From: Trypanosoma brucei
Lineage: Eukaryota
DNA: 64,000 bases
Direction: 5' to 3'
Assembly: GCA_000002445.1 (NCBI GenBank)
Contig: CP000069.1
Coordinates: 96,001-160,000, forward strand
Below, one piece after another: positions 15,867 to 45,300 of the stretch. Each line of letters opens with the position of its first letter. Positions within the stretch are counted from its first letter, which is position 1. Below the pieces are notes generated by a model. It did no database searches. It was not told the origin of the DNA and saw only the letters and a program-made list of their open reading frames with translations. The position numbers and the translations under genes were made by a program.

Positions 15867-15909
15867 AAAGTATACGGTGAAACCTCAACAAGTTGCGCAA
15901 GTAAGGTCG

Positions 15910-19195: not shown

Positions 19196-22100
19196 GGCAA
19201 AATGAGGAAACTGGAATAACTTAATATCTTATGGAAATGAAATGGGAGACCTTGTAGCTGAGGTAGGTGGATTATTAATTGAAGTTAATGAAGGTGAAAG
19301 GAATGTGAGGGAAGTACTACCAACTACCCTTGTGGAAACAAATAAATGTAATGCAGCTATCACAGGGATTCGCAGAACTGTGTGCAATGACATTAGGGCA
19401 GTAAAGAATGCAAATGACTGCAAACGCGGCCGCCGAAGATTTGGCACAACCTGTACACGATCTTAGTGGAAAAGGATGTACAACCCGATGCTTTTTACCA
19501 ACCGTATTTGAGAGAGAAAAAAAATCCATTCTCCTGGTTAGTAGAGTTTGACGCTATAGCTGTGGAAAGTTAAATTATTATGGTTCTACATTTTATGCCA
19601 AGGAAAGGAAAATACTTTAGCAGCCGAAAGGTGGGATTTGGCCACGGAAAAAATGGAACTTGAGTGCCGAGAGAGTATTGGAATCCATACCCATGAATAA
19701 AAAAATCCGAAACCCTCAAGTGCGTGGGTTACGGAATAGAAAGAGGGCAATTGGATGTGGTTTTAGATCCCATGAAAACAATAAATAAAGGAACGTACTC
19801 TAAATCTCTCCAGCCAACAAAGACACTGGTAAACGTCATGATCATTATAGTAAAACCTCTGAGTCATGATCCGGTTACTGTGCTGTGGGCTTCAGAGACA
19901 AATCACATCGCAAAATGCATTTGGACGCAGCCAACATGAGAACATGTGGCTCCGATACCGAGAAGGTCCTGCGATTTCTCGAGAAAGCCCAATTTAGAGT
20001 TAGAATAGGTTAGGCCCTGTCTTCTCTTTATTGTGAGTATGCAATTCGCAAAAAACATTACAACGCAGCATACAGGAACTTTATTGTAAATGATGGCGGC
20101 CAGAGCAACGCCAGTTCATATGCATCTTTCAGTTCTACAGAGAAAAGCCGCGGAATCTCCAGTAAAACAAACCCAGCCAATGCAGAAATGGGAAATCCAT
20201 CCAAAATGCGATTCACTGGACAACGTAAGAAATCGAGTGGTCATGCATTTGGTTTGGATTACTACCAGTTGGTGGAAAGGGATATAGCTTTACTGCGGAA
20301 GGAAAATCTTATCGCACATCTTCATGACAAGGATGCCATCATTGTGGATTAGGGAGCTCTCACAATAACTTTCAATACTGATCCGTACAGGGCAGTGTGA
20401 GGCACGCGGTTATCGCAGTTGGGGGATATCAAAAAGTTTTTGAGTCTGTGGGAAGGAATAACGGCACTCAGCAGTCAATTTGTCAAAAAGACACTAAAAC
20501 CTTACGGAATGACGGCGCCTTCAACAAAAAGGGGAGAACTTTCACCTTCACGCAACAGCAGTAGTCGCAATAGAGAACGATTTGGAATCCCGCATTTTAG
20601 CAGAAATGTGAAAGCATGTAAACACCAAGGAATTTCCTCGCAACACCGCTCGCCATCTCGAGTTGCGGGCTGACGTATGAAACGGTTCAGGAAGTTTAAC
20701 AGCACTAATGTAAAGATGTTTGATGAATGGGCAGCTTTCTCGTAGTTGATTTCACAGCCCACGAGGAAAGTAGCGGGACACGTCTTCATTCCAGAGGCTC
20801 AGCATTTTGTTATTTGCTCATCAAATTAAAGTGACTTCGGAGACTCAGCAGCAGCAGAACTTTCCGGTACAACAGATAGATGCGACTAGGTTATCACTGC
20901 ATTGGGTTAGAGAGAGAGACCTAACATCCAGTCTCGACGGCGATATGATGAAATGTAGCAAATTACGCGTAAAGCCCCGAAGCGTAGGAAGATTGGGAAC
21001 AATAACCGAAATTGACTGTTTCCAAAGTAGATGCATTTATTTTGGAGACTCATCATGGGATGGGTAGTGCCAGCTTTACAGTGATGAAGGGGAAGCCAAG
21101 TCACGAGTAGATGTTTTATCACACGGCCAAAGCTGATAAATAACCATGATAATTATGAAACCATGGCTTCATTAGAGCACGTGTCCCGTTATTTGGGCGC
21201 AGTTTGCAATAAAGCTGCAGCATTCATCTTTGACTCAAAGGCTCCGTTTCTTTCTTTCAGGTGGAACTTGTAGCGTATATTTGCGCATGTCTCCGGTTGC
21301 CAAACGAAGAATGGAAAACTTGTGGAACCAATCCATCTTTCAATGGGTCATGAATATGGTTCAGGATATCCTACACACGATTATACTCAGGCCCCGGAAA
21401 GAGACACAGAAGTGGCTTAACGAAAATGTGCCGCACCGCATCGCTAAAAACATGTGCGAACTTATAACATTCGCATAAAGTGTATTACAGAAAGTCATCA
21501 AGGAGTTGGAGTGTAATGATAAGGGAGCATATGGTACAATACAGTGCCATGGTGGGGAAGAGAAAACTCTTCGCAGAATACAATTTCATATGGGTTCACA
21601 TTTATCACAAGAGAAAAATATGTTGCCACTTGGTCTTCCATAGAAAAATGAGAGTAGGAAAACTCATGAAGGCCTCTTCGATGGAAAAAACAAAAACGAG
21701 AAAACAGTTGAAGAACATAATATCCCGCATGATGTACACGGCAGACGTACGAGGAAATTCTCTATTCCAACAACATTATCTCTTTTTGAAGGTGGTGCGC
21801 CGACGACCTTTAAAGCTCAATACATGATTATTGGAGGAAACTGATTCGACTCACCTTTCATCGCATTCCATGAAGAGAAAACAACAGTGGCTTAATATAT
21901 TTCTTAACAGCGAGTATGTCAATTCACCGAGTTATTTACCAACACCATCCAAATTATTCGCAGGCACCTCAATGAAAGATTGGGAAGCAATACCGTTTAG
22001 GGTTAGTGGGAAGTTATGAGCCCCAGGAGGACCAGTGGGCGCAACCACATTTTTGTGTTTCGCAGGTGGAGGCGAGAGCAGTAGACTTGAAATTACAAAC

Positions 22101-25100
22101 CCTTGAAGGAAACCCGCTCCCAAATGCTTTACGTATGCGTTGGTAACACGCCACGGCCAAGCACGTCATGAAAAGAATGAAATACACATTTCGATGTTTC
22201 GGCAAGTGGAACGCGCCTCGTGAACAAAACATTGCTGGAGGGAAATATCGTGGTCAGCTGGGGCGACGTTGCATCGACAGACAACCCCGCAGACGGCATT
22301 TCTTCGGGTGGGCCGGTTATGCCCAGAAGTTGCGAAAGGGTGTGGGGCAGGTGAAGCACACGCTTTCAGCAATTCCTTGCCGTAACTAAAATCCTTAACA
22401 TAACATATTGATTTACCATTTCTTTTTCAGCAAACGGGTCCACTGTTGTTCAATTTACGAGAGCAGTCTGCTTATCGTTTCCTCACCATTTTTTTTTTCG
22501 GCATGGGGTATGTAAGAAAATGAGTATTATTTTATCACCTTAACTCGGGCAGGCTGTTGGTGAGTTATAAATATCCGTGCAACCCCGCAAGTTGCTGCTA
22601 ACTTATCCCACTCACAAGGAAGCTCACCGCAACCGCTCTCGTCATTCCCCAATGAAAGAAAGAACAGGATCAATGGCACATTAGCACACACACACAAACA
22701 AACAAACACGTATATGTATTTCATGTGCGTTGCTGCTTCTTTCCTGCAAGGAAGTATTTAAGTGTGATGTGGGGCAAGAGTTTGGATTGTTTCTTATTTC
22801 AGTGCCGCAGTCGCTTGTTTGTTGTTTTGTTTCCGCCAGCGTTTACCTCGGCTAATGCGTCTCGGCTCTTAATAATTTCTGTTGTGCCCTTCGCCTTTTG
22901 TGTGGCTGCCTGGCTGGCTGTTCCTCTCATATACTTCTTAAAGGCGCTTTCCAGACAGGAAAAGTTTCCCCTTGGGCACGAATGTCGCATAGCACATGCA
23001 GTGGAAGAAGGGCGTAAGAACATGCGCGACGGAAGAACCGAATCTCATCCAGTTCCGCTTTCTCTTTTTTTTTCTCCTTTGTACCCTACTTTACTTGCAA
23101 ACGCCGCAATCATGTGGAAACACTTGGTCCCCTCTTATGACATCAATCATCTGCCTTTTGGGATGCATTGTCACTCCTCCCTTTTCCTTCATTCATCTTC
23201 GTGTTGTTGCGTCGTCACTCACTCATCCGGTTAGACACACCCTCCACATCCATTCGCACCATTTTCCTCATATTCCGAGTCTCATGCAGCAGAGAGCATG
23301 TATTTATCCATTTTATTTCTTTCCTTGGGTCCACCCAACAGGTTTCGTGTTTGGACCGTAACACAAATTTCATTTCCTGGTCGCAACCCAAACGCCGTTC
23401 GCGATCAGACGAGTTTCAATTCCGGGTAATGGGCCCCTTTCCACTTTGAAATGATTGAACCCTCTTTTTCGCACTTCCAATGGTTGCTGCCACCGTCACC
23501 ACACCTTCTCCACGTAGCGTTGGAAAGAAGTAAGGAATAATAAAAACGCATCTGAGCAACGCAGCAGCGATCAGCCAGTGGACCTCATCAGAGTTTGTGC
23601 CTCCAATCTCATTCCCAAACCAAAAAATTAATCGGGCCCGCATGCGGCACGAGGCGTCCGGCGACTACGGGGGTTTACAAAAGAAGGAAAGTGATGTAAC
23701 AAAAGGAGTTACATAAACATCGCGACCGCACGCACTCCGGCCATACAGGGCTGGAAAATTAATAAAACAACCCGCTCAGGGATAACAATTGTCCTTGAGG
23801 GAAAAAGGTTGGATGCCTGCAGCCGCACGAGTTCCGCTGCGATTCAGGTGAGTTTATCCTTTCCCCCTGAAGGTCGACAGTGTTTCCCTCCATTTGTTCC
23901 CTTCCCAAATAATATCTTCAGCACGTAGCAGTATTTTTGATATTCCAAAGCGGCTGCCAGTGCGTACACTCCTGCATGGGGGGAAAAGCCCCAAGTGAGG
24001 GCGGCAGATATGCGCAAGTAACAATCAGAGCCCATGCACGCAAACACACATGATGTAAAGGGAAACATGTAACAGGTATGCCAAATGCTCAGTTGAGGTT
24101 ACACACTGCAGCGACGTAGACGCTCCCTCCCGCCACAACTCGCCGTAGCTCCTCATCGCACAGTTAAAATGTCAAGGGTTCAGTCTTGAATTACCACAAA
24201 ATACGGATAAATGAGGTTTGCCCCTATAAAGGAGCGGCATTTCTGCACTCCCCTCGAGTGTCCAAACAGTGTTGTAAATAACAGAAGGATATTATAGGCT
24301 CAGCAATATTAACAGAGTGAACGTGTTACAAAACTCCCTCACAATAAAATAATTAGTATAAGCTGCAATAACTGCGACGGTGAGGGAACTTTGTTATACT
24401 GCGAGGCAACGCGGGTTTCAGTACATAACTAAGCTCATGCATCGACATCACACTCTGGAGGGAATGGAGGCAATCACATACCTTAAATCCTTACGGCAAC
24501 ACAAATGAGTGAAGGGAAAGAAAGCATGCAACTGGTGAAACAACATGTAACATCAGCAATGCAGAGGGTGATAAGGGTTGTATATCCGAAGAGAGAGATA
24601 CAACAGCCCACATAACACCCAACACATACAAACACACATGCAACATAACACTCATTATGAAAAAATATTTAAAGACACCGCTAGCATTAAGTGGATTCAA
24701 AAAGAAAAACGTGACGCAGACACACACGGAAACACAGTTTTGTACCCAAAAGGTTGCGGGATTGGGCGTGAGAGGTGGAATTTAAAAAAATAAAATAAAA
24801 TAGTCATGCACTCGCACGCTTAAGGACAGACGTGTTGAAAAAGAAATGTTTCACCTTATTTTTCTTAAAGCCTCAAATGGCAAGGACACAAATAAAAAAG
24901 AGAGCCCTTAGGGAAAGTACATAGCTAATCCCGTTTTGTGATTACTCACAGAACAAAAACGTTTTGGTTAAATTAGAAGAAATGTTGAGCCGTCCTGTCT
25001 TCCATAAGTGTCGGATTTGGAACAGTAAGAAACCAACCGGCGCTGACACGGCAAAACACATGCATGTGTTAATTCAGTGTCTTGAAAGACAACGCACGTG

Positions 25101-25350
25101 TAATCTAACAGAGGGCATGTTCCCTCTTAAGATTAGTATGTGCTTTAATGCAGAGGCAGCAGCCACCAAAAATAGAATGTAAAAAATGTAATAATAAATA
25201 GATGGCAAAAGATAAAAATAGATACAAAAGACAAACCCTACCGAGACTACGTTAAAATTCACTAACAACTACTACAATCGGTATGCTAATTAACTTTTCC
25301 GCCGAGTAAAACTAAGAGATTTGTACGCTTTATGACGTGCAACAGTACCA

Positions 25351-28300
25351 CTAATGTAACGACGGAAGCGGACACCCAAAGTGGCCTTCTCTGAAATGTG
25401 AACCAACGAATGGAACAATTATGATTGAGCCCTCTTCAGTACTCACAGAAGCTTCACTGCTTCCACTTTGAGCGCTACGGTCAGCGACACGCCCAACCTT
25501 AACTGCAATGCGACGCACCACTTCCTCACAGTAGGCGTCATCCCACTCGAATGCGGCTTCACGGGGAAGAGGCACACGCCAACGCTCACAAAGCGACGCC
25601 AGAAGATTCCCCCGTTGCGCTGCTTTAAAAGTTCGGAAAACAGACTGCAGTGAGTTCAATATCGATTGTGCTGATTCACTCAGCTCGGCACGTGAAGAAC
25701 TGTGGTCGCTTGTGGAGGTTGTCGTGCCATCCTCGTCTTCATCAAAGAATTCGCGATCCAGCCGTAATGCAGCAAAGTTGCGGCCAGGCACGGCATTCAA
25801 CTGGTACATTTCCACAGGATCATTCACGCCACGAAGTGCAACATCACCAAGTGCAGTGACATCAATTTGCTCACGCTCCTCAGCTGACAGTGACATGTAA
25901 ACCTCATGCGTCATCAGCACCTGACCACCATTTGCTACACTCTCTGTCCTTTCTGCCATGTTTGGAGTCCGCCCATAGTAGTCATATCCCTTCGTCACTT
26001 CATCGTGTCGGATGTCGCACAACCCGGTGTGGATTCCAACACGTACACGCAGGCCATTCCACAAACGACTGTACACTTTGAGGTCCAACCGCGCAGTTGG
26101 CGGTGTGTACTTCTCGTCCTCCTCCGCACGCTGCTGCTCCAACTGCTGGTAAGAATCATCAATCGCATTTGTTCCCCAGTCATGATGCAAGAAACACAGC
26201 TGTAGTTCCTGTGCGAGTTGGACGGCAGCGAAAGGACTCTTACTCGCTATCATGAACGAATCCCCAACAGTTTTGACTTCGTAGCACTTATACCTCCCAA
26301 TCAGTGAACGAATCAAATAGTGATGTGTCGCAACGGCATCAGGCATCAGCTCAGGGTGTGCAGCCCACAACGCAGTGCTGCTCTCAATGTCAGTAAATAT
26401 TAGTGTCACGGGGTCAGTTTGTTCCTTGGGTGCAAGATTGTTATCACGGGCATTCCGGTGTGTTGCTAATATAACAACCACAAGAACCGTAACAAGCGGC
26501 ACCAACATTACGACGAAGCCAACTGCAATAGCGGCAATTTGCTCAGTCATCTGTTGGATCCATCTCGGTTCATCATAGGTCACTCACAGTGTGGCAGACG
26601 ACAGCGCAGAGGACACAAAAGGGTTTAGAACATGTGACATCGACCATACAAAAATATGCATCCCACCACCGTTGACAACAGTGCTTCGCCTCAAGTCAAG
26701 TTTCGTTCGTACACTTGTCTCCAAACGACCCATACATTGCAGGACACTTCCCATTGCGTATGCGATGGCAGACCCAAGTAGTGACAATGGCTTCCACTTC
26801 GACTCATTCTGCACGATCTTGCGGAACTCACGTACTGTTTTGGACTCCGTGATCTTATCCCTCCGATGTGACAGATTCGTTGCGAATAGCAAGGGGTTAG
26901 AAAATGGCTTTTCATGGAAGGCACTCACGAGTTCGCCGTGGATTGGTGCATCATCGAAGAATAGGACAAAGACGTGCACATTACGGTGTTTGTTAGGGTG
27001 AAAGAGGATTATGGGGATATTATATGGGATAAGACCTACAACCAATACCTGACATGCAGTTGACAGCTTGTCTCTCAAATTAGGACCTTCACCACTCGCA
27101 ACAAAGAAGCTTAGTGATGTGTTAAAGTTGTCAAGTGTTTTTGCAACATATTCCTAATTCCTCTCGTATCACCACCACGACACACAATGACATGCATTCT
27201 TCCTGCACCATTTTGTATAATATGCTCAACTATCATAAATAACTGCTGCTCATTTGTTGGTAACAGGTGGATCACATTCCTTCTGGGGTTACTCGGTTGT
27301 GATGTGAGTATTATAGGATCGATGAATGCCATACCCTTCGTCCGCAGTAACGAATTATCCACGACACCAAACACAGCAGTTACAACTCGTTTCTCAACAT
27401 CATTATACAGAGTTGCAGAAGCTTCGTAAGATTTCGAGGATAGTCAGTGTAAAAAGAAACCATCAGAGTGACCCAGTTGACCTTTGCCAACAACATGAGG
27501 GACACCATCGTATACCATCTATGCAGCACGCAGTGCCTTTGGGTCATCGGTTATATTAAACATGACCCCACTCAATGGGCCATACAACTGTGGCAGGTCT
27601 CGATAACAGCGAGATGAACCAAGGGTTAATATAGCTTCCTTCATAGGGTGTAGATGGAGATCCTTTTCCACCTTCTTCATGCACATCACACTCCCACCTT
27701 GGTTACGTAAACACGATACACCCCGCTCTCCCGCCATATTACGGCACTCACCACCAAAGTCACCAACCACAATATTATCAATTGGATAACGACGTTTATT
27801 GTACAGTGATTTCATAAATACACCCCTGCTAGTTAGCTATTCGTGACAACTCAGTGCCTGTTTCAATACCTCTCCAGCAACCCATCTGTTCAATGTCAGC
27901 TCAGCTTCAGCGTCTTGCTCGGTGAAGTTATTTTCGTTAATATCCCACCTTGTGCGCTTATAGTTATTACCATTAACCTTTAACAACATAGTCATATCAT
28001 CCCTGAAACGCCTGACAGCTTTGTATGTGTCACCCTTCGTAATTAGGTCAGCCCCAGTTATTATTATTTTATCAGCCACAAACTCGTCTCTGCCCAATTT
28101 ATATGCCCACTTGTTCTTGACGGCGTGTTGGAGTGCAGAGGGTGTATGAATAAATATTCGCCTCTCGTCCTGTGGTCATATAATCATTTCATGGGGAATC
28201 TCTTCATATCAGGGATTGGAGAACCAAATACAATCACTCCCTGAGGTCCAGTATCGGCAACCTTATTCCACTCCGCACTGAAGCTACTGTTATCCGATTC

Positions 28301-28930
28301 CTTACCAATTTGACTCTTCAATGCAAAAAAATAACAACTAAACAACTTGCGATTCATCCGTGTTGCCAACTACGCAGCAAGCTTATACTCATCATCACCA
28401 TAAGAAACATCTTTCAAATACATGAAATCCAGTCGGTGTGACCGTAACTGAGTGATAGCATAACGGAAAAGAGCAAGCATCTCAACGGCGAGTGATGCTT
28501 CCAGGAGTCATAAATTGGGATTCCAACTGTGTACCCTACTGAATCCTGTGAAGGGCAAAAAATCAACTACACATTCTTTTCATTGAAATATTTGGTTAAG
28601 TTGAGAGTATTTTTGTCACCCACAGGTTCCAGTATAATGGCAAGCTCATCACCGTAATTGGTTGTACAGATGGCGTATCCAAAGTCATCCATAGACGAAA
28701 CATGTGCAACTGCCACACTGACACACGGAAGCGACTTTCCGTTGGTAATAGATGCGTTGAAGCCTGCAGTAATAGGATCAAATACCTTTGCTGAAATCTT
28801 GTCACTGTATAACATGTTGTATACCCTTACCCATATTAATCCATTTGCAAGCTATACTTCAGCCAGCAGCTGTAGTAATATAGAAAAACACCACGTAAGT
28901 GACTACGCCATCTCTAGCATGTAATTCACG
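25351..28930 (-). pseudogene. GRESAG4: Divergent receptor-type adenylate cyclase paralogue, disrupted (pseudogene copy A)
   Basis: The C-terminal 410-aa ORF (25351-26583) carries a TM helix (IAAIAVGFVVMLVPLVTVLVVVILA) plus a complete class III cyclase catalytic domain (VTLIFTDIESST, VKTVGDSFM, GIHTG, YDYYGRTPNMAERTES). It is separated by a TGA (SSATL*VTYDE) from the upstream in-frame piece 26584-27078. Further upstream pieces lie in other frames (27111-27374, 27519-27815, 27837-28097, 28184-28369, 28567-28815). They are collinear with successive segments of the full-length extracellular domain but share only about 30-45% aa identity with it. Confidence 0.8.
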
Positions 28931-30012
28931 CATGGAGGTAACCGTGATACTAGTAACTCAACGTAATTCAACTTTCAAACTACAGGACAAAAACGGCATA
29001 ATAACAAAGTATTGGTACAAGATTAATAGACTGCATGTGTATATGTAAGAGCGTGGGAAAGGGAACTACTGTAGTGGATAACATTACACAAACCATAACA
29101 GCGAGAAAGTAGTTCAACACACATTCCCCCATACACCCACATATCATTCATGTATCCGATACAAAAACATAAAACATCACTAGGCATAAGGGTAAATGTG
29201 TAGATAGAACATTACAGTATCATAAACTGGATTGCCATTAACAAAAACACAGCACACTAACAGTCACAGTTAACACTCAAACTGTAAATTTTAACTCACA
29301 ACATCACGGCAGACATTGCTCAGTTTCATATTCCTTGACTGTCTAGGAGTAAAAGAGAGTGTGCGAGAGAATATGAGGAAAGCTTCAGCAACCATAGAGA
29401 AATATAAAGGAAGTTATACACATGTATCAGATATTGCAAATAGTTACATGCAGCAAGGTGATTAAGAGATACCTTACAAGCCAGCATCTCCGAATGAAAA
29501 AAAAAAATTAGGGTAGACGCGAGGGATAAGCACAGGAGGTCACTTTTACTTCGCTATAGCCTCCGCTTCATGGGCATCACCTTATTATCAAACACATTTT
29601 TAAATGCAAGGACACAGCTCCTAACAACACATTAGAGGTGGAGCGCCTCACATGACAACGGACCACACGGACGGCAATATAAATTTAAATAAGATATTAT
29701 TTAGAAGAAGTTAAGCATTAATAGTGGCGTGGATGCACACATCCCTCACTACGTTAAACAGAAAATTAACGACTTTCATATATTGTAATCAAAAGATAGT
29801 ATGCCCATTTCAAAAATAAAATGCATCCCTGTGCATAAAAATATTTAAACACCCAACATATGAGGAAAATATTGCATGCACAAAAAGTTGGGGAGCAAAG
29901 TATTAGAAGAACACTATATGAAGTGAATCTAAAAAAAGTTTGCACATATTATATAAACATTATTATCCATTTACAACAACAAAACATACATACATCAATG
30001 TCATGAGAAATA

Positions 30013-33000
30013 TTAACAGGTACTACCAACACTTTCCAGGTCAATCAAATCAGTGGTGCAGCGTCGTCCCTCAACATAGGAAAAGTTTGAAGATGAAGCA
30101 ACCGTTGCAACAGTAGCTCCTCCAGGTGAAAATAGACTTCCACCCCTTTCCAATGATGTCACACTGCTGGAGGAGCTCCTCGTTCCAAAATCCATAACAC
30201 AACCCACCTTTGCAGCAATCCGACGGGTAACACAGCGACAACTGGCTTCATTCCAAGCATCCACCCCTGGGGGCTTCTTAACATGCCAACGCTCACAAAA
30301 TGTTGCAAGCATCTTCTGTCGCTGGATAACTGGAAATGCGCCAATGAGGGCATCAATGCAACCAGCAACCTGTTGAGCGGTGGCAGTTAAACCACACTCA
30401 TTAAAGCTCGACTCACTAGCGCTACTACCTGTTCCAACATCTTCTTCATCCTCGATTTCACGTTCCAGCCGTAATGCAGCAAAGTTGCGGCCAGGCACGG
30501 CATTCAACTGGTACATTTCCACAGGATCGGGCACACCACGTAGCGGCACATCACCAAGTGCAGTGACATCAATTTGCTCACGCTCCTCAGCTGACAGTGA
30601 CATGTAAACCTCATGCGTCATCAGCACCTGACCACCATTTGCTACACTCTCTGTCCTTGCTGCCATGTTTGGAGTCCGCCCATAGTAGTCATATCCCTTC
30701 GTCACTTCATCGTGTCGGATGTCGCACAACCCGGTGTGGATTCCAACACGTACACGCAGGCCATTCCACAAACGACTGTACACTTTAAGGTCCAACCGCG
30801 CAGTTGGCGGTGTGTACTTCTCGTCCTCCTCCGCACGCTGCTGCTCAAACTGCTGGTAAGAATCATCAACTGCATTTGTTCCCCAGTCATGTTGCAAGAA
30901 ACACAGCTGTAATTCCTGTGCGAGTTGGACGGCAGCGAAAGGACTCTTACTCGCTATCATGAACGAATCCCCAACAGTTTTGACTTCGTAGCACTTATAC
31001 CTCCCAATCAGTGAACGAATCAAATAGTGATGTGCCGCAACGGCATCGGGCATCAGCTCAGGGTGTGCAGCCCACAACGCAGTGCTGCTCTCAATGTCAG
31101 TAAATATTAGTGTCACAGGGTCCGTTGGCTCCTTGGGTGCAAGATTGTTATCACGAGCATTCCGCAGGGTGATGCGTAGGAGCACACCAAGGGCAATAAA
31201 AGGTATCAAGCCGGCTATACACCCGATACCTATGCCGGCTATCTGTGACCCTGTGAGACGACTCCCTCCTGAAATGATATACCCCATAGACGGTGTCATG
31301 CCGCGTTGCAATATGGGCACACTTGAATTCAGCACACGCGCCATCGACCATACAGAAATGTTTGTGGCTCCAAAGTTTGAGGCACACTCATTTGCCGAAA
31401 CACTCGTACCAGAAACACATTCCACATCACTGAAGGGTCCAAATCGCATGTCATCCACTTTGATGTTGGACTCCGTGTAAATGCGGTCTGCCAGCAGCTC
31501 TGCATTCACTTTCTTCATATTCGGGAGAATCACTTGAAGCAGCCGAGTGGTAACAAAACCTAAGAACGTTAGTGGATCCCAATGCGATTCATTCACAATG
31601 CGATGGAAACTCGCAACCACATCTGATTTCGTGTCCTTCTCCGCCCAGTGTGGGAAACTCGTCGCGAATAGGAGCCGCTCTGAGCTAGCAATAGACTCTT
31701 TACTCGCATTAAACGCAGCTACAAACTCATCGTAGTACATTGCAAGGTCATTGAATGGAATGAATACACGTGCCCTGCGGTGGGTCTGAAGGTGCCGCGC
31801 AACTGCAGCAACGTCAGTGAGAGTGAGTCCAATAGTAAACACATCTCTATTACCCGAGAGATATGACGATATCGGGTCACCATCACCAAGTGTCTTGCTG
31901 GAATCAAGCGGCACACCAAACGTGTCCAATGACTTGTACAGCAGGCTACTGATCTCCACTACTTGCTCACTACGTATGAGTGCATTTACTCCTCTGGAAG
32001 AAGTGTTGGAGAGATACACAGCAAGCACATAAAGTTGCTGCGCAAGGACAGGCAGTAAGTGTATTACGTTTCTCCTAAACAATTTCATGCGGGGTCGAAG
32101 TGTCATAGGACTGATGAACACTAAATCTTTTCGGTCCAGAAGCCCTCCAGGCATGATACCAAATACTGCAGATACATCCCTGTTATCCTGTACTTGCTCA
32201 AGGGATTGCGTCACATTCTCTGAAGATACTGTTAGGGGATGGAAAAATATTCTATTGTCAATATTCTCCGCTTCCTTGCCATGAACCTCGGCACCAAGGA
32301 ACCACTTCCTGCTCGCACGTAATGCAATTTTATTATCTGCGAGAAGCAAAAAGAGGCCACTCAATGGCGCACCCACATGTACATTGGCACTCGAGCACTC
32401 TGATACACCCCACGTTAGATGTCCTTCCCACAAAGGCGCTGGTCGGAAGCCATCCATTATACTCTTCATATATACCATACTGCCACCTTGATTGCATTCA
32501 CACATGGCACCCTGTAATGCAACGGCCTCATTGCACTCACCACCAAAGTCACCAACCACAAGGTCATCAATCACGTAGCGACGCTGCTTGTACAGAGATT
32601 CCCTGAATGATGTACGGTTCGTCAGCTGTGGGGCGTTATTCAGAGCTTCGAAGAGAACTTCTCCCGCAAGCCACCCATACACCATCATCTCACCTGCGTT
32701 GTCGTCCTCAAGGTAGTGATCGGGTTTCTTAAAAAAGTTCCAGTCATTGTTTGTCCTGAGGTAGTTGTCCATGTCATGCTGGAAGCGCTGAATCAGTGAG
32801 AACCGAGTATCGTTAGCGAGCGGCACTGTTCCAGTTGTGATTAGCTGTCCAGGAGTGAATGTACGATTAGCTAACGCCAATGCCTCACGCCACATCTTGA
32901 TCAAAAAATTTTGCTGTAGTGAAGTAGAAAGAAGATACGCATTGGCAGTGCGGTTGTCCTGTGCTACCTTCTTGATGAACCACTTTGCTGTATTACCCAG

Positions 33001-33819
33001 GGATGAAAACAGCAATATAGCCTGTGGGCGCGTAGCAACAAATTGTCTCCACCTGGTGTTCAAATCATCCTCAGAGATATTTTGATTCTCACTCTCCTTC
33101 ACAACGAACATTCCACACAGCTCGCGACCCATCATTTCCAATATCTGCACAGTAAACTCATACGGTCCCATACTGGCGGTGCTGCTCTTCACGTGCATCA
33201 TACCTATTCGTGGGACACGGAGGTAAACAACAGCATAACGAATGAGGGCGAGGAGTTCAGCATTGGGTTCGACACTTATGAAATAAAGGTGAGGGTTCCA
33301 ACCACGGACCTCACTGGAGTACGCAACGGGAGCGAGGGCAACAAGATCATGTTCCTTCAGTTTATCACTGACCCACGAGACGTGATTAGTACCCAGCGGC
33401 CCGAATACAACTAATAACTTGTCTTCACTTTGATTCATTCCCTGCTGAAATATGTCCTCGATTGTCGCATTGGGTGATGGGGGACGGATGACAGATATTG
33501 TCGCATTAGAGCCCGTCTTCCAGCTGTGGGCACTCAGTGATGCGTCAAAACCGGCATTAAGATCGTTAACTTCATCGTCAGAATATTCCGGATTATACAT
33601 CATGGATAGCACTTTTACCGTCACATTACTCGCTTCCGCGCACACAGGTGGCATCCACATGAGTAGCAAAGGCAACAAGTGTAGCAGTGACATAGCAGTA
33701 ATGACAGGTGAGTGCTTGTACTTGCTGTAACGCCTTGCAGGGCTCCTTGCGGTAAGGTTCCGCCTGCAGTTTCCATGAGGGTACACACATCCTCTTCCAC
33801 CACCTTCCTGCCAGCACAT
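30013..33819 (-). CDS. GRESAG4: Receptor-type adenylate cyclase, full length (copy 1, 1268 aa from first ATG)
   Basis: Single 3.8 kb ORF. First ATG is at 33819 (MCWQEGGG...), and a further in-frame ATG lies directly before the hydrophobic leader (MSLLHLLPLLLMWMPPVCAEA). The protein has a large extracellular domain of about 820 aa with many N-glycosylation sequons. One TM follows (IAGIGIGCIAGLIPFIALGVLL), then the class III cyclase domain (PTDPVTLIFTDIESSTALW, YEVKTVGDSFMIAS, RVGIHTGLCDI, GYDYYGRTPNMAARTESVANGGQVL), and a C-terminal tail of about 150 aa. This architecture and length are those of trypanosome ESAG4/GRESAG4 cyclases. Confidence 0.9.
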   Translation of the reverse strand: MCWQEGGGRGCVYPHGNCRRNLTARSPARRYSKYKHSPVITAMSLLHLLPLLLMWMPPVCAEASNVTVKVLSMMYNPEYSDDEVNDLNAGFDASLSAHSWKTGSNATISVIRPPSPNATIEDIFQQGMNQSEDKLLVVFGPLGTNHVSWVSDKLKEHDLVALAPVAYSSEVRGWNPHLYFISVEPNAELLALIRYAVVYLRVPRIGMMHVKSSTASMGPYEFTVQILEMMGRELCGMFVVKESENQNISEDDLNTRWRQFVATRPQAILLFSSLGNTAKWFIKKVAQDNRTANAYLLSTSLQQNFLIKMWREALALANRTFTPGQLITTGTVPLANDTRFSLIQRFQHDMDNYLRTNNDWNFFKKPDHYLEDDNAGEMMVYGWLAGEVLFEALNNAPQLTNRTSFRESLYKQRRYVIDDLVVGDFGGECNEAVALQGAMCECNQGGSMVYMKSIMDGFRPAPLWEGHLTWGVSECSSANVHVGAPLSGLFLLLADNKIALRASRKWFLGAEVHGKEAENIDNRIFFHPLTVSSENVTQSLEQVQDNRDVSAVFGIMPGGLLDRKDLVFISPMTLRPRMKLFRRNVIHLLPVLAQQLYVLAVYLSNTSSRGVNALIRSEQVVEISSLLYKSLDTFGVPLDSSKTLGDGDPISSYLSGNRDVFTIGLTLTDVAAVARHLQTHRRARVFIPFNDLAMYYDEFVAAFNASKESIASSERLLFATSFPHWAEKDTKSDVVASFHRIVNESHWDPLTFLGFVTTRLLQVILPNMKKVNAELLADRIYTESNIKVDDMRFGPFSDVECVSGTSVSANECASNFGATNISVWSMARVLNSSVPILQRGMTPSMGYIISGGSRLTGSQIAGIGIGCIAGLIPFIALGVLLRITLRNARDNNLAPKEPTDPVTLIFTDIESSTALWAAHPELMPDAVAAHHYLIRSLIGRYKCYEVKTVGDSFMIASKSPFAAVQLAQELQLCFLQHDWGTNAVDDSYQQFEQQRAEEDEKYTPPTARLDLKVYSRLWNGLRVRVGIHTGLCDIRHDEVTKGYDYYGRTPNMAARTESVANGGQVLMTHEVYMSLSAEEREQIDVTALGDVPLRGVPDPVEMYQLNAVPGRNFAALRLEREIEDEEDVGTGSSASESSFNECGLTATAQQVAGCIDALIGAFPVIQRQKMLATFCERWHVKKPPGVDAWNEASCRCVTRRIAAKVGCVMDFGTRSSSSSVTSLERGGSLFSPGGATVATVASSSNFSYVEGRRCTTDLIDLESVGSTC

Positions 33820-33861
33820 ATTTTCGGGAATGTGTGACACTTTTCGTGTGTGAAATCTTAT

Positions 33862-33910
33862 GTCCTAAGGAAGAATATCAAAAGAGGGAAAATAGAAATC
33901 AGTAAGATTA
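33862..33910 (-). promoter_or_regulatory. Polypyrimidine tract plus AG (minus strand), candidate SL acceptor for copy 1
   Basis: The reverse complement reads cttactgatttctattttccctcttttgatattcttccttAGgacataag, about 45 nt upstream of the ATG at 33819. The same motif precedes copies 2 and 3. Confidence 0.5.
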
Positions 33911-36735
33911 CACTTCCAGACAGTTGGATGCTATAACAAGTTCCCGACAAAACCAAAACAATGCTTAAAAAGCAATGAAGGCACGTCAAGGTAGCGAGAG
34001 GCGACTCGTTTATGATGTCACTGTAAATTGCGAGCAAATGATAGAAAGGGACAACCGACACGCTGGTAGGTAATGGTGTCACACAAACAAACACGTATAT
34101 GTATTTCATGTGCGTTGCTGCTTCTTTCCCGCAAGGAAGTATTTAAGTGTGATGTGGGGCAAGAGTTTGGATTGTTTCTTATTTCGGTGCCGCAGTCACT
34201 TGTTTGTTGTTTTGTTTCCGCCAGCGTCTACCTCGGCTAATGCGTCTCGGCTCTTAATAATTTCTGTTGTGCCCTTCGCCTTTTGTGTGGCTGCCTGGCT
34301 GGCTGTTCCTCTCATATACTTCTTAAAGGCGCTTTCCAGACAGGAAAAGTTTCCCCTTGGGCACGAATGTCGCGTAGCACATGCAGTGGAAGAAGGGCGT
34401 AAGAACATGCGCGACGGAAGAACCGAATCTCATCCAGTTCCGCTTTCTCTTTTTTTTCTCCTTTGTACCCTACTTTACTTGCAAACGCCGCAATCATGTG
34501 GAAACACTTGGTCCCCTCTTATGACATCAATCATCTGCCTTTTGGGATGCATTGTCACTCCTCCCTTTTCCTTCATTCATCTTCGTGTTGTTGCGTCGTC
34601 ACTCACTCATCCGGTTAGACACACCCTCCACATCCATTCGCACCATTTTCCTCATATTCCGAGTCTCATGCAGCAGAGAGCATGTATTTATCCATTTTAT
34701 TTCTTTCCTTGGGTCCACCCAACAAGTTTCGTATTTGGACCGTAACACAAATTTCATTTCCTGGTCGCAACCCAAACGCCGTTCGCGATCAGACGAGTTT
34801 CAATTCCGGGTAATGGGCCCCTTTCCACTTTGAAATGATTGAACCCTCTTTTTCGCACTTCCAATGGTTGCTGCCACCGTCACCACACCTTCTCCACGTA
34901 GCGTTGGAAAGAAGTAAGAAATAATAAAAACGCATCTGAGCAACGCAGCAGCGATCAGCCAGTGGACCTCATCAGAGTTTGTGCCTCCAATCTCATTCCC
35001 AAACCAAAAAATTAATCGGGCCCGCATGCGGCACGAGGCGTCCGGCGACTACGGGGGTTTACAAAAGAAGGAAAGTGATGTAACAAAAGGAGTTACATAA
35101 ACATCGCGACCGCACGCACTCCGGCCATACAGGGCTGGAAAATTAATAAAACAACCCGCTCAGGGATAACAATTGCCCTTGAGGGAAAAAGGTTGGATGC
35201 CTGCAGCCGCACGAGTTCCGCTGCGATTCAGGTGAGTTTATCCTTTCCCCCTGAGGGTCGACAGTGTTTCCCTCCATTTGTTCCCTTCCCAAATAATATC
35301 TTCAGCACGTAGCAGTATTTTTGATATTCCAAAGCGGCTGCCAGTGCGTACACTCCTGCATGGGGGGAAAAGCCCCAAGTGAGGGCGGCAGATATGCGCA
35401 AGTAACAATCAGAGCCCATGCACGCAAACACACATGATGTAAAGGGAAGCATGTAACAGGTATGCCAAATGCTCAGTTGAGGTTACACACTGCAGCGACG
35501 TAGCCGCTCCCTCCCGCCACAACTCGCCGTAGCTCCTCATCGCACAGTTAAAACGTCAAGGGTTCAGTCTAGAATTACCACAAAATACGGATAAATGAGG
35601 TTTGTCCCTATAAAGGAGCGGCATTTCTGCACTCCCCTCGAGTGTCCAAACAGTGTTGTAAATAACGGAAGGATATTATAGGCTCAGCAATATTAACAGA
35701 GTGAACGTGTTACAAAACTCCCTCACAATACAATAATTAGTATAAGCTGCAATAACTGCGACGGTGAGGGAACTTTGTTATACTGCGAGGCAACGCGGGT
35801 TTCAGTACATAACTAAGCTCATGCATCGACATCACACTCTGGAGGGAATGGAGGCAATCACATACCTTAAATCCTTACGGCAACACAAATGAGTGAAGGG
35901 AAAGAAAGCATGCAACTGGTGAAACAACATGTAACATCAGCAATGCAGAGGGTGATAAGGGTTGTATATCCGAAGAGAGAGATACAACAGCCCACATAAC
36001 ACCCAACACATACAAACACACATGCAACATAACACTCATTATGAAAAAATATTTAAAGACACCGCTAGCATTAAGTGGATTCAAAAAGAAAAACGTGACG
36101 CAGACACACACGGAAACACAGTTTTGTACCCAAAAGGTTGCGGGATTGGGCGTGAGAGGTGGAATTAAAAAAAAATAAAATAAAATAGTCATGCACTCGC
36201 ACGCTTAAGGACAGACGTGTTGAAAAAGAAATGTTTCACCTTATTTTTCTTAAAGCCTCAAATGGCAAGGACACAAATAAAAAAGAGAGCCCTTAGGGAA
36301 AGTACATAGCTAATCCCGTTTTGTGATTACTCACAGAACAAAAACGTTTTGGTTAAATTAGAAGAAATGTTGAGCCGTCCTGTCTTCCATAAGTGTCGGA
36401 TTTGGAACAGTAAGAAACCAACCGGCGCTGACACGGCAAAACACATGCATGTGTTAATTCAGTGTCTTGAAAGACAACGCATGTGTAATCTAACAGAGGG
36501 CATGTTCCCTCTTAAGATTAGTATGTGCTTTAATGCAGAGGCAGCAGCCACCAAAAATAGAATGTAAAAAATGTAATAATAAATAGATGGCAAAAGATAA
36601 AAATAGATACAAAAGACAAACCCTACCGAGACTACGTTAAAATTCACTAACAACTACTACAATCGGTATGCTAATTAACTTTTCCGCCGAGTAAAACTAA
36701 GAGATTTGTACGCTTTATGACGTGCAACACTACCA

Positions 36736-39700: not shown

Positions 39701-40310
39701 CAATGCAAAAAAATAACAACTAAACAACTTGCGATTCATCCGTGTTGCCAACTACGCAGCAAGCTTATACTCATCATCACCATAAGAAACATCTTTCAAA
39801 TACATGAAATCCAGTCGGTGTGACCGTAACTGAGTGATAGCATAACGGAAAAGAGCAAGCATCTCAACGGCGAGTGATGCTTCCAGGAGTCATAAATTGG
39901 GATTCCAACTGTGTACCCTACTGAATCCTGTGAAGGGTAAGAAATCAACTACACATTCTTTTCATTGAAATATTTGGTTAAGTTGAGAGTATTTTTGTCA
40001 CCCACAGGTTCCAGTATAATGGCAAGCTCATCACCGTAATTGGTTGTACAGATGGCGTATCCAAAGTCATCCATAGACGGAACATGTGCAACTGCCACAG
40101 ACACACGGAAGCGACTTCCCGTTGGTAATAGATGCGTTGAAACCTGCAATAATAGGATCACATACCTTTGCTGAAATCTTGTCACTGTATAACATGTTGT
40201 ATACCCTTACCCATATTAATCCATTTGCAAGCTATACTTCAGCCAGCAGCTGTAGTAACATAGAAAAACACCACGTAAGTGACTACGCCATCTCTAGCAT
40301 GTAATTCACG
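36736..40310 (-). pseudogene. GRESAG4: Divergent receptor-type adenylate cyclase paralogue, disrupted in the extracellular part (pseudogene copy C); retains a 574-codon open frame over the TM and catalytic domain
   Basis: 36736-38460 is open for 574 codons (TTG at 38460; first ATG about 38136 giving about 466 aa). It encodes the distal extracellular region, the TM and a complete catalytic domain with no internal stop. Upstream collinear pieces are in other frames or interrupted (38493-38756, 38901-39197, 39219-39479, 39566-39751, 39949-40185). The same disruption pattern is seen in copies A and E. Confidence 0.8.
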
Positions 40311-41384
40311 CATGGAGGTAACCGTGATACTAGTAACTCAACGTAATTCAACTTTCAAACTACAGGACAAAAACGGCATAATAACAAAGTATTGGTACAA
40401 GATTAATAGACTGCATATGTATGTGTATATGTAAAAGCGTGGGAAAGGGAACTACTGTAGTGGATAACATTACACAAACCATAACAGCGAGAAAGTAGTT
40501 CAACACACATTCCCCCATACACCCACATATCATTCATGTATCCGATACAAAAACATAAAACATCACTAGGCATAAGGGTAAATGTGTAGATAGAACATTA
40601 CAGTATCATAAACTGGATTGCCATTAACAAAAACACAGCACACTAACAGTCACAGTTAACACTCAAACTGTAAATTTTAACTCACAACATCACGGCAGAC
40701 ATTGCTCAGTTTCATATTCCTTGACTGTCTAGGAGTAAAAGAGAGTGTGCGAGAGAATATGAGGAAAGTTTCAGCGACCATAGAGAAATATAAAGGAAGT
40801 TATACACATGTATCAGATATTGCAAATAGTTAGATGCAGCAAGGTGATTAAGAGATACCTTACAAGCCAGCATCTCCGAATGAAAAAAAAAGATTAGGGT
40901 AGACGCGAGGGATAAGCACAGGAGGTCACTTTTACTTCGCTATAGCCTCCGCTTCATGGGCATCACCTTATTATCAAACATATTTTTAAATGCAAGGACA
41001 CAGCTCCTAACAACACATTAGAGGTGGAGCGCCTCACATGACTACCGCCCACACGGACGGCAATATAAATTCAAATAAGATATTATTTAGAAGAAGTTGA
41101 GCATCAATGGCGGCGTGGGTGAACACATCCCTCACTACGTTAAACAGAAAGTTAACGACCCCCGAATATTGTAATCAAAAAATGGTGTGCCCATTTCAGA
41201 AGTAAAATGCATCCCGTACACAAGGATATTTAAAGCATCCAGCATATGAAGAAAATATTGCATGCGCAAAAAGTTGGGACGCAAAATGATAAAAATCGTT
41301 TATACAAGCCTGCTATGAAAACACAAAATGAATTATGTAAACATTATTATCCATTTACAACAACAAAACATACATACATCAATG

Positions 41385-45206: not shown

Positions 45207-45249
45207 ATTTTCGGGAATGTGTGACACTTTTCGTGTGTGAAATCTTATG

Positions 45250-45300
45250 TCCTAAGGAAGAATATCAAAAGAGGGAAAATAGAAATCAGTAAGATTACAC
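45250..45300 (-). promoter_or_regulatory. Polypyrimidine tract plus AG (minus strand), candidate SL acceptor for copy 2
   Basis: Same sequence as the element upstream of copy 1 (reverse complement of aagaatatcaaaagagggaaaatagaaatcagtaag), about 45-90 nt upstream of the ATG at 45206. Confidence 0.5.

What the first reader, a model, noticed from the sequence alone, without database searches (positions are those of the whole stretch)
25757..26455. Domain-restricted homogenisation: degenerate cyclase pseudogenes carry a ~700 bp block about 97% identical to the functional genes, with razor-sharp boundaries
Pseudogene copies A, C and E are only about 30-45% identical in protein to the full-length genes across the extracellular domain, and they are riddled with frameshifts there. 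Yet in A, 25757-26455 is almost base-for-base identical to 30460-31160 in copy 1. The equivalent blocks are about 37140-37840 in C and about 41850-42550 in copy 2. The 5' boundary (protein sense) falls exactly at the cytoplasmic face of the TM helix. Here cattccgGTGTGttgc in the pseudogene faces cattccgCAGGGtgatg in the gene, at the R of RNARDNNLAPKE. The 3' boundary is at ccagccgtaatgcagcaaagttgcggcc, after which the tails are again only loosely similar. A divergent micro-patch inside the block (VALRGVNDP versus VPLRGVPDP) shows the tract is itself a mosaic. The simplest reading is recurrent gene conversion confined to the catalytic-domain exon-like module. This may keep a reservoir of catalytic-domain sequence in otherwise dead copies. 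Alternatively the pseudogenes may act as donors that diversify the functional genes.
Basis: seen in the sequence. Interest (0 to 1): 0.7.

Follow-up and report, generated by a model that had tools for sequence, protein, structure and literature searches.

The report
Chimeric cyclase genes sharing one domain
In a Trypanosoma brucei adenylate-cyclase gene array, each decayed pseudogene shares a near-identical 701-bp catalytic-domain block with the intact gene beside it. The two are reciprocal hybrids of two older cyclase subfamilies, and short gene conversions still shuffle patches inside that block, which is a known style of evolution in this parasite.

Summary
Pseudogene A at 25757-26457 and gene G1 at 30464-31164 differ at 22 of 701 nt (96.9%). 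Flanks are only 35-55% identical and both edges are sharp. The same block occurs in all six copies.

The window is T. b. brucei TREU927 chromosome 6 (G1-G3 = XP_845156-8). Synonymous divergence in the block is 0.07-0.14, against 1.5-2.2 between the two parental subfamilies, so purifying selection cannot explain it.

The sharp edges are mainly recombination junctions, not the ends of repeated conversion tracts.
- The pseudogene has a Y-type ecto/TM region. At block column 1 it switches to X-type (GRESAG4.1-like) sequence, which continues through the tail and about 6 kb of 3' flank (99% identical to an intact X-type locus).
- The intact gene is X-type from 2.3 kb upstream to the block's end.
- Its tail, the intergenic spacer and the pseudogene's ecto domain are collinear with a tail-spacer-ecto junction of a Y-type tandem array.
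- The block is the X-type catalytic sequence on both sides of a Y-derived insert.

Recurrent short conversions inside the block are also real and run both ways. Patch patterns conflict with copy type, and the T. equiperdum orthologue carries different patches.

The pseudogene catalytic domains show decay, so a selected "reservoir" is not supported. The finding is an instructive example of a known process.

The parts
25757..26457 (-). Block in pseudogene A (701 nt, 233 codons = catalytic domain). X-type sequence throughout.
30464..31164 (-). Block in functional gene G1 (XP_845156).
37139..37839 (-). Block in pseudogene C.
41848..42548 (-). Block in functional gene G2 (XP_845157).
57634..58334 (+). 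Block in functional gene G3 (XP_845158, 100% identical to P0001).
62340..63040 (+). Block in pseudogene E. It is the most mosaic copy and has 9 private changes.
26458..30463 (-). Y-derived insert of unit 1: G1 tail (30013-30463), the G1-A intergenic spacer, and pseudogene A's decayed ecto domain plus TM helix. It is collinear with the cat-tail-spacer-next-ecto path of a Y-type tandem array (L003 12525-16649 matches 31174-27124 at 76.6%).
37840..41847 (-). Y-derived insert of unit 2 (G2 tail, spacer, pseudogene C ecto+TM).
58335..62339 (+). Y-derived insert of unit 3 (G3 tail, spacer, pseudogene E ecto+TM).
30529..30547 (-). Y-type island inside G1's block (cols 618-636, protein VPLRGVP). It is identical to Y-type genes at every X/Y-informative site from col 618 to 635. 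Equivalents are 41913-41931 in G2 and 58251-58269 in G3.
30603..30616 (-). Converted patch in G1 (cols 549-562, THEVYM). It is identical to pseudogenes A and C and differs from G2 and G3 (TGSTYL). Tract is at least 14 nt and at most about 111 nt (cols 507-617).
62885..62901 (+). Converted patch in pseudogene E (cols 546-562), G3-type. The T. equiperdum orthologue still has the pseudogene/X type here.
19472..25756 (-). X-type tail of pseudogene A (25351-25756) plus about 6 kb of 3' flank. 98.8-99.3% identical to the tail and flank of the intact X-type gene on L001.
42549..47514 (-). X-type TM, ecto domain and 2.3 kb upstream flank of G2. Collinear with L001 1-4957 (upstream 97.8-99.5%, ecto about 94%).
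22695..34123 (-). Repeat unit 1 (pseudogene A + G1). Unit 2 is 34080-45510 (97.5% identical). Unit 3 is inverted, 54619-64000, and is cut by the window end (96.8%).

Best explanation
Each 11.4-kb unit is an X-type (GRESAG4.1-like) receptor adenylate-cyclase locus interrupted inside its catalytic-domain coding region. The interrupting piece is about 4 kb derived from a tandem array of a different GRESAG4 subfamily (Y-type, related to the chromosome 4 array). It consists of a Y tail, a Y intergenic spacer, and a Y ecto domain with its TM helix.

The result is two reciprocal hybrids:
- The upstream gene G has X ecto/TM/catalytic sequence plus a Y tail and Y 3' spacer. It is intact.
- The downstream copy has Y ecto/TM sequence (decayed by frameshifts and stops) plus X catalytic domain, tail and flank.

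The 701-bp block is the only segment where both carry X-type sequence. That is why identity jumps from about 45% to about 97% at the TM/catalytic boundary and falls again at the end of the catalytic domain. Both junctions sit at the edges of the conserved cyclase fold, where X and Y share only short identical runs. The same 3' breakpoint separates swapped tails in the T. b. gambiense chromosome 4 array.

Shown:
- collinearity with X and Y relatives
- junction positions
- low dS in the block
- patch patterns that conflict with copy type, and differences between strains

Inferred:
- The hybrid pair arose by homology- or microhomology-guided ectopic repair or template switching, or by two unequal exchanges. 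T. brucei is known to use HR at one end and microhomology at the other.
- The unit was then duplicated in tandem at a 33-nt CA-rich motif and copied in inverted orientation.
- Since then, short-tract gene conversions (about 14 to 300 nt) have moved patches between G and pseudogene blocks in both directions and from other family members. These are restricted to the block because nothing outside it is similar enough to pair.
- The X-type stretch at cols 637-701 in G, lying between a Y island and the Y tail, is probably one such overwrite.
For: Identity of the locus:
- G3 is 100% identical to XP_845158 of TREU927 chromosome 6.
- Pfam finds PBP-like ecto domains plus PF00211.

Domain-wise identities:
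- The G ecto domain resembles P0003-P0006 (69-90%), but the G tail resembles P0012 and P0014 (72-74%).
- The pseudogene ecto domain resembles P0012, P0014 and P0018 (55-74%), but its tail is 100% identical to P0003's tail.

Nucleotide collinearity:
- L001 1-5691 matches 47514-41815 (95.5%), and L001 4958-11938 matches 26457-19472 (98.7%).
- An independent X-type locus in T. b. gambiense (L002) shows the same two breakpoints.
- L003 12525-16649 matches 31174-27124, running through tail, spacer and the next ecto domain.

Sliding comparison with X and Y references:
- G2 is X-like up to about col 580-700 and Y-like afterwards.
- Pseudogene C is Y-like up to about col 0 and X-like afterwards.

Selection and mosaicism:
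- dS is 0.07-0.14 for G vs pseudogene, against 1.5-2.2 for X vs Y.
- The 3' end of G reads X, Y, X, Y in turn.
- In the Tbg chr4 array, two genes are 97-100% identical in ecto and catalytic domains, but their tails are unrelated and the break is at the same position.

Literature:
- One-sided MMEJ/HR gene conversion in T. brucei: PMC3045614.
- Gene conversion and mosaics in GRESAG4 tandem arrays: PMC1855330 and PMC2854126.
Against: - No near-identical Y donor was found. The closest Y relatives are only 77-81% identical in nucleotides and at most 66-74% in protein, while the X parts are 94-99% identical to X relatives. Either the donor lineage is lost or unsampled, or the event is old and the X parts have been refreshed by later conversion.
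- L001 comes from a T. brucei contig misfiled in a Schistosoma mansoni assembly. Its strain and map position are unknown, and misassembly cannot be fully excluded. Against misassembly, its ecto domain matches no reference copy, and L002 supports the same architecture independently.
- A single-crossover model predicts one shared junction position. The two junctions seen here are about 617-700 nt apart, so extra steps (template switch or later conversion) must be assumed.
- With multi-nucleotide patches counted once, the pseudogene block is about equally distant from G and from L001. Its immediate ancestry inside the block is therefore blurred.
Confidence: 0.75

Rival explanations
1. Pseudogene and gene are anciently diverged paralogues over their whole length. 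Recurrent gene conversion restricted to the catalytic-domain module alone created and maintains the block, and the block edges are conversion-tract ends.
For: - Conversion inside the block is demonstrably recurrent and bidirectional.
- In G, cols 637-701 are X-type and lie between a Y island and the Y tail, as expected for a tract that stops where homology stops.
- The block is more diverged between pseudogene A and L001 (2.6%) than their tails and flanks are (0.7-1.2%), which marks it as an exchange hot zone.
Against: - The pseudogene's near-identity to X-type sequence does not stop at the block. It continues for 406 nt of tail and about 6 kb of non-coding flank at 99%.
- G's tail, the spacer and the pseudogene's ecto domain form one continuous Y-array-like piece.
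- The tail types are exchanged relative to every older family member.
Confidence: 0.12
2. The polarity is reversed. G and the pseudogene are the older architectures, and intact X-type genes such as the one on L001 arose from them by deletion (unequal crossover or single-strand annealing between the two blocks of a unit).
For: L001 looks exactly like the array collapsed to one gene. Its upstream flank matches G2's upstream flank at 99.5%, and its downstream flank matches pseudogene A's at 99%. Such pop-outs are expected between 701-nt direct repeats.
Against: - The X ecto + this-tail architecture is shared by diverged genes: P0004, P0005 and GRESAG4.1 (P0006), with ecto identity 69-86% and tail identity about 70%. 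It therefore predates the young G cluster, whose members are all at least 91% alike.
- L001 is pseudogene-like at the type-specific sites from col 36 onward. A crossover would have had to fall within the first 36 nt of the block.
- L001's ecto domain is 6% diverged from every G copy.
Confidence: 0.08
3. The block is simply the most strongly constrained part of the protein, so purifying selection alone keeps it similar.
For: The catalytic domain is the conserved part of the family. The review PMC6027212 gives 83-87% protein identity.
Against: - Synonymous divergence in the block is 0.07-0.14 between G and pseudogene, but 1.5-2.2 between X and Y subfamily catalytic domains.
- Family members with ecto identity below 50% to G1 have catalytic identity of 71-83%, not 96%.
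- The copies in question are pseudogenes.
Confidence: 0.01
4. The block is an assembly artefact, produced by collapse or mis-joining of repeats in the reference sequence.
For: The region is highly repetitive, with three 11-kb units.
Against: - Six copies each have their own private substitutions.
- An independent T. equiperdum assembly has the same structure with the same edges but different patches.
Confidence: 0.01

Closest known systems
Gene conversion and sequence mosaics in T. brucei tandem gene arrays, including GRESAG4 arrays (Jackson 2007, PMC1855330; Jackson et al. 2010, PMC2854126)
   Same: Same organism and gene family. Short conversion tracts between neighbouring copies, recombinant isoforms specific to strain or subspecies, and concerted evolution within arrays.
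   Different: Those surveys compared like with like, namely full-length copies of one array. The events I could find listed for GRESAG4 arrays lie in ecto-domain CDS positions. The chromosome 6 array they analysed (Tb927.6.760, five copies) appears to be a different array, XP_845199-203. I found no description there of a reciprocal hybrid pair from two subfamilies, or of pseudogene/gene exchange limited to the catalytic domain. I searched only open-access text.
One-sided homologous recombination / microhomology-mediated gene conversion in T. brucei (Glover, Jun and Horn 2011, PMC3045614)
   Same: An experimentally shown repair route that copies ectopic sequence, with long homology at one end and 5-20 bp of imperfect microhomology at the other. 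This is the kind of event that could create X/Y junctions at the edges of the conserved domain.
   Different: That work used induced breaks in the laboratory. Here the mechanism is only inferred from junction sequences, and no break site or intermediate is known.
VSG mosaic gene formation by segmental gene conversion from pseudogene archives in T. brucei (from the text of PMC2854126 and general knowledge)
   Same: Pseudogenes act as sequence donors to expressed genes. The proteins are modular, and a conserved C-terminal part provides the homology.
   Different: VSG mosaics form somatically during infection and are selected by antibody. Here the events are germline-scale, few in number, and affect an intracellular enzyme domain. 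No evidence of selection for diversity was found.
Pseudogene-templated microconversion in tandem gene/pseudogene modules, e.g. human CYP21A2/CYP21A1P in the RCCX module (own knowledge, not tested here)
   Same: A tandem unit contains a functional gene and a decayed paralogue. Short conversion tracts run in both directions, and unequal crossover produces hybrid genes and copy-number variation.
   Different: In RCCX the gene and pseudogene are similar along their whole length. Here similarity is limited to one domain because the two partners are reciprocal inter-subfamily hybrids.

Membership tests
Trypanosomatid receptor-type adenylate cyclase (ESAG4/GRESAG4 family) | Extracellular periplasmic-binding-protein-like domains, one TM helix, an intracellular class III cyclase domain and a variable C-terminal tail | tested here: met
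   - G1 matches PF25495, PF25493 and PF00211.
- G3 is 100% identical to a TREU927 GRESAG4 protein.
- The block aligns to PDB 1FX2 (GRESAG4.1 catalytic domain) at E=4e-138.
Pseudogene (copies A, C, E) | Reading frame disrupted relative to intact homologues | tested here: met
   tblastn with P0018 needs 4-5 HSPs in different frames, and the HSPs contain several in-frame stops in every copy. The last roughly 600 codons are in one frame with 0-1 stops.
Interlocus (non-allelic) gene conversion / concerted evolution | Paralogue identity elevated at synonymous sites relative to the background between the lineages | tested here: met
   dS is 0.07-0.14 in the block, against 1.5-2.2 between X and Y catalytic domains.
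Interlocus (non-allelic) gene conversion / concerted evolution | Site patterns incompatible with any single tree and clustered along the sequence | tested here: met
   - 270 of 595 site pairs fail the four-gamete test, and the PHI-like test gives p=0.0008.
- There are 12 sites with the G1+A+C vs G2+G3+E pattern and 12 type-specific sites.
- Run tests give p of 0.001 or less. Caveat: the 10-nt patch may be one mutational unit, so the sites are not independent.
Interlocus (non-allelic) gene conversion / concerted evolution | Orthologous copies in another lineage carry different tracts, i.e. lineage-specific homogenisation | tested here: met
   Compared with TREU927 E, the T. equiperdum copy (Eeq) differs at cols 546-562 and 618-635. 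G3eq and Eeq share their own patch at cols 294-313.
Chimeric (hybrid) genes from non-allelic recombination between subfamilies | Each hybrid is collinear with one parental type on one side of a junction and with the other type beyond it, including non-coding flanks | tested here: met
Chimeric (hybrid) genes from non-allelic recombination between subfamilies | Identifiable donor sequences of similar age for both parental parts | tested here: not met
   X relatives are 94-99% identical. The best Y relatives are only 77-81% (nt) or 66-74% (aa). The searches could reach only part of the family's DNA.
Selectively maintained catalytic-domain 'reservoir' or truncated functional cyclase | The catalytic module of the pseudogenes is kept intact by selection | tested here: not met
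   - A and C have Ala->Glu in the NMAARTES motif (col 506).
- E has a premature stop in the tail.
- The T. equiperdum orthologue lacks 17 codons, including KTVGDSFM.
- The open frame in A and C is explained by recent origin or refreshment.

The most novel reading that the evidence does not exclude
The hybridisation may be functional rewiring rather than an accident. The intact G genes combine a GRESAG4.1-type (chromosome 6) sensor and catalytic domain with the C-terminal tail and 3' UTR/spacer of a different subfamily. Tails have been reported to carry flagellar sub-domain targeting signals, and 3' UTRs control stage-specific expression in trypanosomes. The swap could therefore have moved a sensor to a new place or life-cycle stage. 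The adjacent pseudogenes would then act as a local donor archive that changes surface loops of the working enzyme (for example TGSTYL to THEVYM in G1), a small-scale analogue of VSG mosaic formation applied to signalling receptors.
Probability: 0.15. Interest if true: 0.55.

Novelty: new member of a known kind. Interest (0 to 1): 0.33.

Why it matters
The finding gives a worked, base-level example of how the large trypanosome cyclase family evolves. Ecto domain, catalytic domain and tail with its 3' spacer behave as exchangeable modules. The conserved catalytic domain serves as the recombination substrate, and its two edges are recurrent breakpoints.

Three practical consequences follow:
- Sharply bounded identity blocks in multigene families can be hybrid junctions rather than conversion-tract ends.
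- Family trees built on whole genes or on the catalytic domain alone will mislead.
- Pseudogenes can write into functional cyclases.

The finding does not change the general picture. Gene conversion and mosaicism in T. brucei arrays are already established.

Tried and rejected
- Exact-protein look-ups for the TREU927 genes P0001 and P0002 found nothing on record. TREU927 DNA outside the window could not be fetched, so I could not see what lies immediately left or right of the window.
- A protein search with the stitched pseudogene ecto translation returned only 3 hits, the best at 66%. No close intact Y relative or donor was found.
- I first assumed this was Jackson's array 'Tb42' (Tb927.6.760). 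Cluster members show that array is XP_845199-203, a different five-gene GRESAG4.1-like array. The single Tb42 conversion event in his Table S2 therefore does not concern this locus.
- Supplementary files of Durante et al. 2020 are not held. Locus tags and pseudogene flags could not be checked.
- The idea that L001 is an assembly chimera of reference copies was rejected. Its ecto domain is 6% diverged in nucleotides from G2, and in protein it drops to 72-90% identity to every reference G copy in many 60-residue stretches.
- The idea of a truncated 'headless' functional cyclase from the TM+catalytic ORF was considered and judged unlikely because of the lesions listed above.
- tRNA and Rfam scans of the window found nothing.
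- One MAFFT run timed out and was repeated.
Full report
**What the window is**

The three long ORFs are G1 (30013-33819, minus strand), G2 (41385-45206, minus) and G3 (54979-58797, plus). All three are receptor-type adenylate cyclases with PBP-like ecto domains and a class III cyclase domain.
- G3 is 100% identical to XP_845158 of Trypanosoma brucei brucei TREU927 chromosome 6. G1 is XP_845156 and G2 is XP_845157.
- Self-comparison shows an 11.4-kb unit, each holding one intact gene followed by one decayed copy. It is present twice in tandem (22695-34123 and 34080-45510, 97.5%) and once inverted (54619-64000, 96.8%, cut by the window end).
- The decayed copies are A (about 25351-28945), C (about 36736-40330) and E (about 59850-63443). 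Relative to their closest intact relative, P0018, they need 4-5 frame changes and contain several in-frame stops in the ecto domain.

**Checking the observation**

The only similarity between gene-type and pseudogene-type copies that BLAST finds is a block of about 734 nt.
- A sliding-window plot of A against G1 gives 29-67% identity outside the block and 96-100% across most of it.
- In a six-way alignment the block is exactly 701 nt: A 25757-26457, G1 30464-31164, C 37139-37839, G2 41848-42548, G3 57634-58334 and E 62340-63040.
- Differences are 22 for A/G1 (96.9%), 19 for C/G1 and 34-35 for C or A against G2.
- The block corresponds to the crystallised catalytic domain: block residues 5-233 align to residues 1-229 of PDB 1FX2.
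- An independent T. equiperdum assembly has the same block with the same edges.

**Not purifying selection**

- Nei-Gojobori dS inside the block is 0.07-0.14 for gene/pseudogene pairs. For catalytic domains of the two subfamilies involved it is 1.5-2.2.
- Family members whose ecto domains are less than 50% identical to G1 have catalytic domains 71-83% identical to it, not 96%.

**What sets the edges**

Domain-wise comparison with 26 family members gave an exchanged pattern.
- G has an ecto domain like P0003-P0006 (69-90%; this group includes GRESAG4.1). I call this 'X-type'. Its tail, however, resembles P0012 and P0014 (72-74%), which I call 'Y-type'.
- The pseudogene has an ecto domain and TM helix like P0012, P0014 and P0018 (55-74%). 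Its tail is 100% identical to P0003's tail.

Nucleotide data confirm the pattern.
- L001 is a T. brucei contig misfiled in the Schistosoma mansoni RefSeq assembly. It carries the intact X-type gene P0003. It is collinear with G2 from 2.3 kb upstream through the ecto domain to the end of the block (L001 1-5691 matches 47514-41815).
- L001 is also collinear with pseudogene A from the first base of the block through the tail and about 6 kb of 3' flank (L001 4958-11938 matches 26457-19472).
- By segment, L001 vs G2 is 99.5% and 97.8% upstream, about 94% in the ecto domain and 94.6% in the block. L001 vs A is 97.4% in the block, 99.3% in the tail and 99.2% and 98.8% in the flank.
- A second, independent X-type locus shows the same two breakpoints. 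This is P0004 of T. b. gambiense, next to the HpHbR and procyclin genes (L002).
- L003 is a Y-type tandem array on T. b. gambiense chromosome 4. It is collinear in one 4.2-kb alignment with G1's catalytic end, G1's tail, the G1-A spacer and pseudogene A's ecto domain (L003 12525-16649 matches 31174-27124, 76.6%).
- A sliding comparison with X and Y references shows G switching from X-like to Y-like at about cols 580-700. The pseudogene switches from Y-like to X-like at about col 0.

The unit is therefore an X-type locus split inside its catalytic-domain coding sequence by a piece of a Y-Y array. The block is the X-type catalytic sequence on both sides of that insert.

The polarity (X and Y parental, G and pseudogene derived) follows from the ages of the architectures. 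The X ecto + this-tail architecture occurs in genes as diverged as 69-86%. The G architecture occurs only in one young cluster, whose members are at least 91% alike.

**Fine structure of the 3' junction in G**

- G is X-type up to col 609-617.
- It matches Y at every X/Y-informative site from col 618 to 635.
- It is X-type again at cols 637-701, and Y-type from about col 705 onward.
- Older G-type paralogues left of the window (P0002, P0035) keep a longer Y-like stretch (VPKP).
- This pattern fits an original junction near col 610-618, followed by an overwrite of cols 637-701 from an X-type block.

**Conversion is real and continuing**

- Among the six copies there are 35 informative sites. 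Twelve are type-specific, and twelve group G1+A+C against G2+G3+E.
- 270 of 595 site pairs fail the four-gamete test, and a PHI-like permutation gives p=0.0008.
- The complex haplotype at cols 549-562 (THEVYM vs TGSTYL) is shared by G1 with the flanking pseudogenes A and C, including col 562 where L001 differs. This is best read as a pseudogene-to-gene transfer of 14 to 111 nt.
- E carries the G3 haplotype there, together with the sites at cols 192 and 546 that only G3 and E share.
- In the T. equiperdum orthologue, E keeps the pseudogene-type haplotype. The transfer from G3 to E is therefore specific to the TREU927 lineage.
- In T. equiperdum, G3 and E share a different patch (cols 294-313). 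E also has a foreign patch at cols 322-346 and a partly G-type stretch at cols 618-635.
- The block is more diverged between A and L001 (2.6%) than the adjacent tail and flank are (0.7-1.2%). This is expected if the block is the zone of exchange.

**No sign of a selected reservoir**

- A and C have Ala->Glu in NMAARTES.
- E has a stop in the tail.
- The T. equiperdum copy has lost 17 codons, including KTVGDSFM.
- The otherwise clean 3' part is explained by recent X-type origin or refreshment that includes non-coding flank.

**Generality**

In the T. b. gambiense chromosome 4 array, two genes are 97-100% identical through the ecto and catalytic domains. Their tails are unrelated, the break falls at the same catalytic-domain edge, and identity resumes in the spacer. 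Tail cassettes with breakpoints at the catalytic-domain border therefore seem to be a family property.

**Mechanism (inferred)**

- The junctions lie where X and Y share only short identical runs. The longest is a 26-nt run at cols 638-663, and the first roughly 50 nt of the block are about 82% identical.
- T. brucei repairs breaks by homologous recombination and microhomology-mediated joining, including ectopic conversion with HR at one end and microhomology at the other (PMC3045614).
- A template-switching repair event, or two unequal exchanges, could produce the pair.
- The two junctions are 617-700 nt apart, so a single simple crossover is not enough.
- The unit then duplicated at a 33-nt CA-rich motif that marks the unit borders.

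**Relation to the literature**

- Gene conversion, mosaics and strain-specific recombinants in T. brucei tandem arrays, including GRESAG4 arrays, are documented (PMC1855330 and PMC2854126).
- The conserved catalytic domain, variable ecto domain and variable tail are textbook features of the family (PMC6027212).
- The review also reports a flagellar targeting signal in the tail.
- Durante et al. note many truncated cyclase genes and 'rapid evolution and rearrangement' (PMC7719234).
- I found no description of this reciprocal X/Y hybrid pair, or of pseudogene/gene exchange in this array. I could search only open-access text.

**Verdict**

The finding is a clear but unsurprising instance of known recombination-driven evolution in a trypanosome multigene family.

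Noticed in passing
L001 (NW_017386323.1 of GCF_000237925.1); also proteins XP_018644553.1, XP_018644084.1 and XP_018644083.1: The Schistosoma mansoni RefSeq assembly contains T. brucei contigs annotated as S. mansoni genes (e.g. Smp_112590). L001 is 99.8% identical to window 1-3471. Another fragment (P0033) is nearly identical to TREU927 XP_845148.
   Followed up: partly
window 19472-26457 and L001 4958-11938: A 7-kb segment (pseudogene A block, tail and 3' flank) is repeated in inverted orientation on L001 at 98.7%. L001 then runs into window position 1. This suggests a large inverted repeat flanking about 20 kb just left of, and inside, the window, or else an inversion between strains. The position of L001 in TREU927 could not be verified.
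   Followed up: partly
window 34080-34112 and 45467-45499, plus a variant with one extra CAAA at about 22690-22730: A 33-nt CA-rich motif (CACACAAACAAACACGTATAYGTATTTCATGTG) sits exactly at the borders of the tandem 11.4-kb units. It is probably the short homology used for the unit duplication.
   Followed up: partly
window 24320-24767 and 35704-36151; L001 6643-7088; L002 14324-14771; L004 18981-19427: A 448-nt non-coding element lies about 580 nt downstream of the X-type stop codon. It is 98% conserved even at the T. b. gambiense P0004 locus, where the neighbouring coding sequence is only 89-92% identical. It has no ORF and no Rfam match. Its function is unknown; it may be a 3' UTR or RNA-processing element.
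   Followed up: partly
window 45510-54619: The cyclase units are arranged head-to-head around a 9-kb region: G2 is on the minus strand and G3 on the plus strand. GC skew changes sign near 44-50 kb. This is a palindrome-like array around a divergent strand-switch region. A fourth intact copy (XP_845159) must lie beyond the right end of the window.
   Followed up: no
L003 (T. b. gambiense chr 4) 10001-13684 vs 18381-22250: Two neighbouring Y-type cyclase genes are 97-100% identical through the ecto and catalytic domains, but their C-terminal tails are unrelated. The break is at the same catalytic-domain edge as in the window, and identity resumes in the spacer. This is a tail-cassette swap.
   Followed up: partly
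L004 17349-18031 (T. equiperdum orthologue of pseudogene E): This copy has a 51-nt in-frame deletion (block cols 160-210) that removes KTVGDSFM. It also has a 13-difference patch at cols 322-346 that appears to come from another family member.
   Followed up: partly
window 15877-17301 (+): An intact 474-aa ORF with a nucleoside transporter domain (PF01733, E=6e-32). It lies between the cyclase array and the left end of the window.
   Followed up: no
window 18001-20000: The lowest G+C in the window (0.35, against 0.42-0.51 elsewhere). It lies next to the end of the segment shared with L001 (19472).
   Followed up: no
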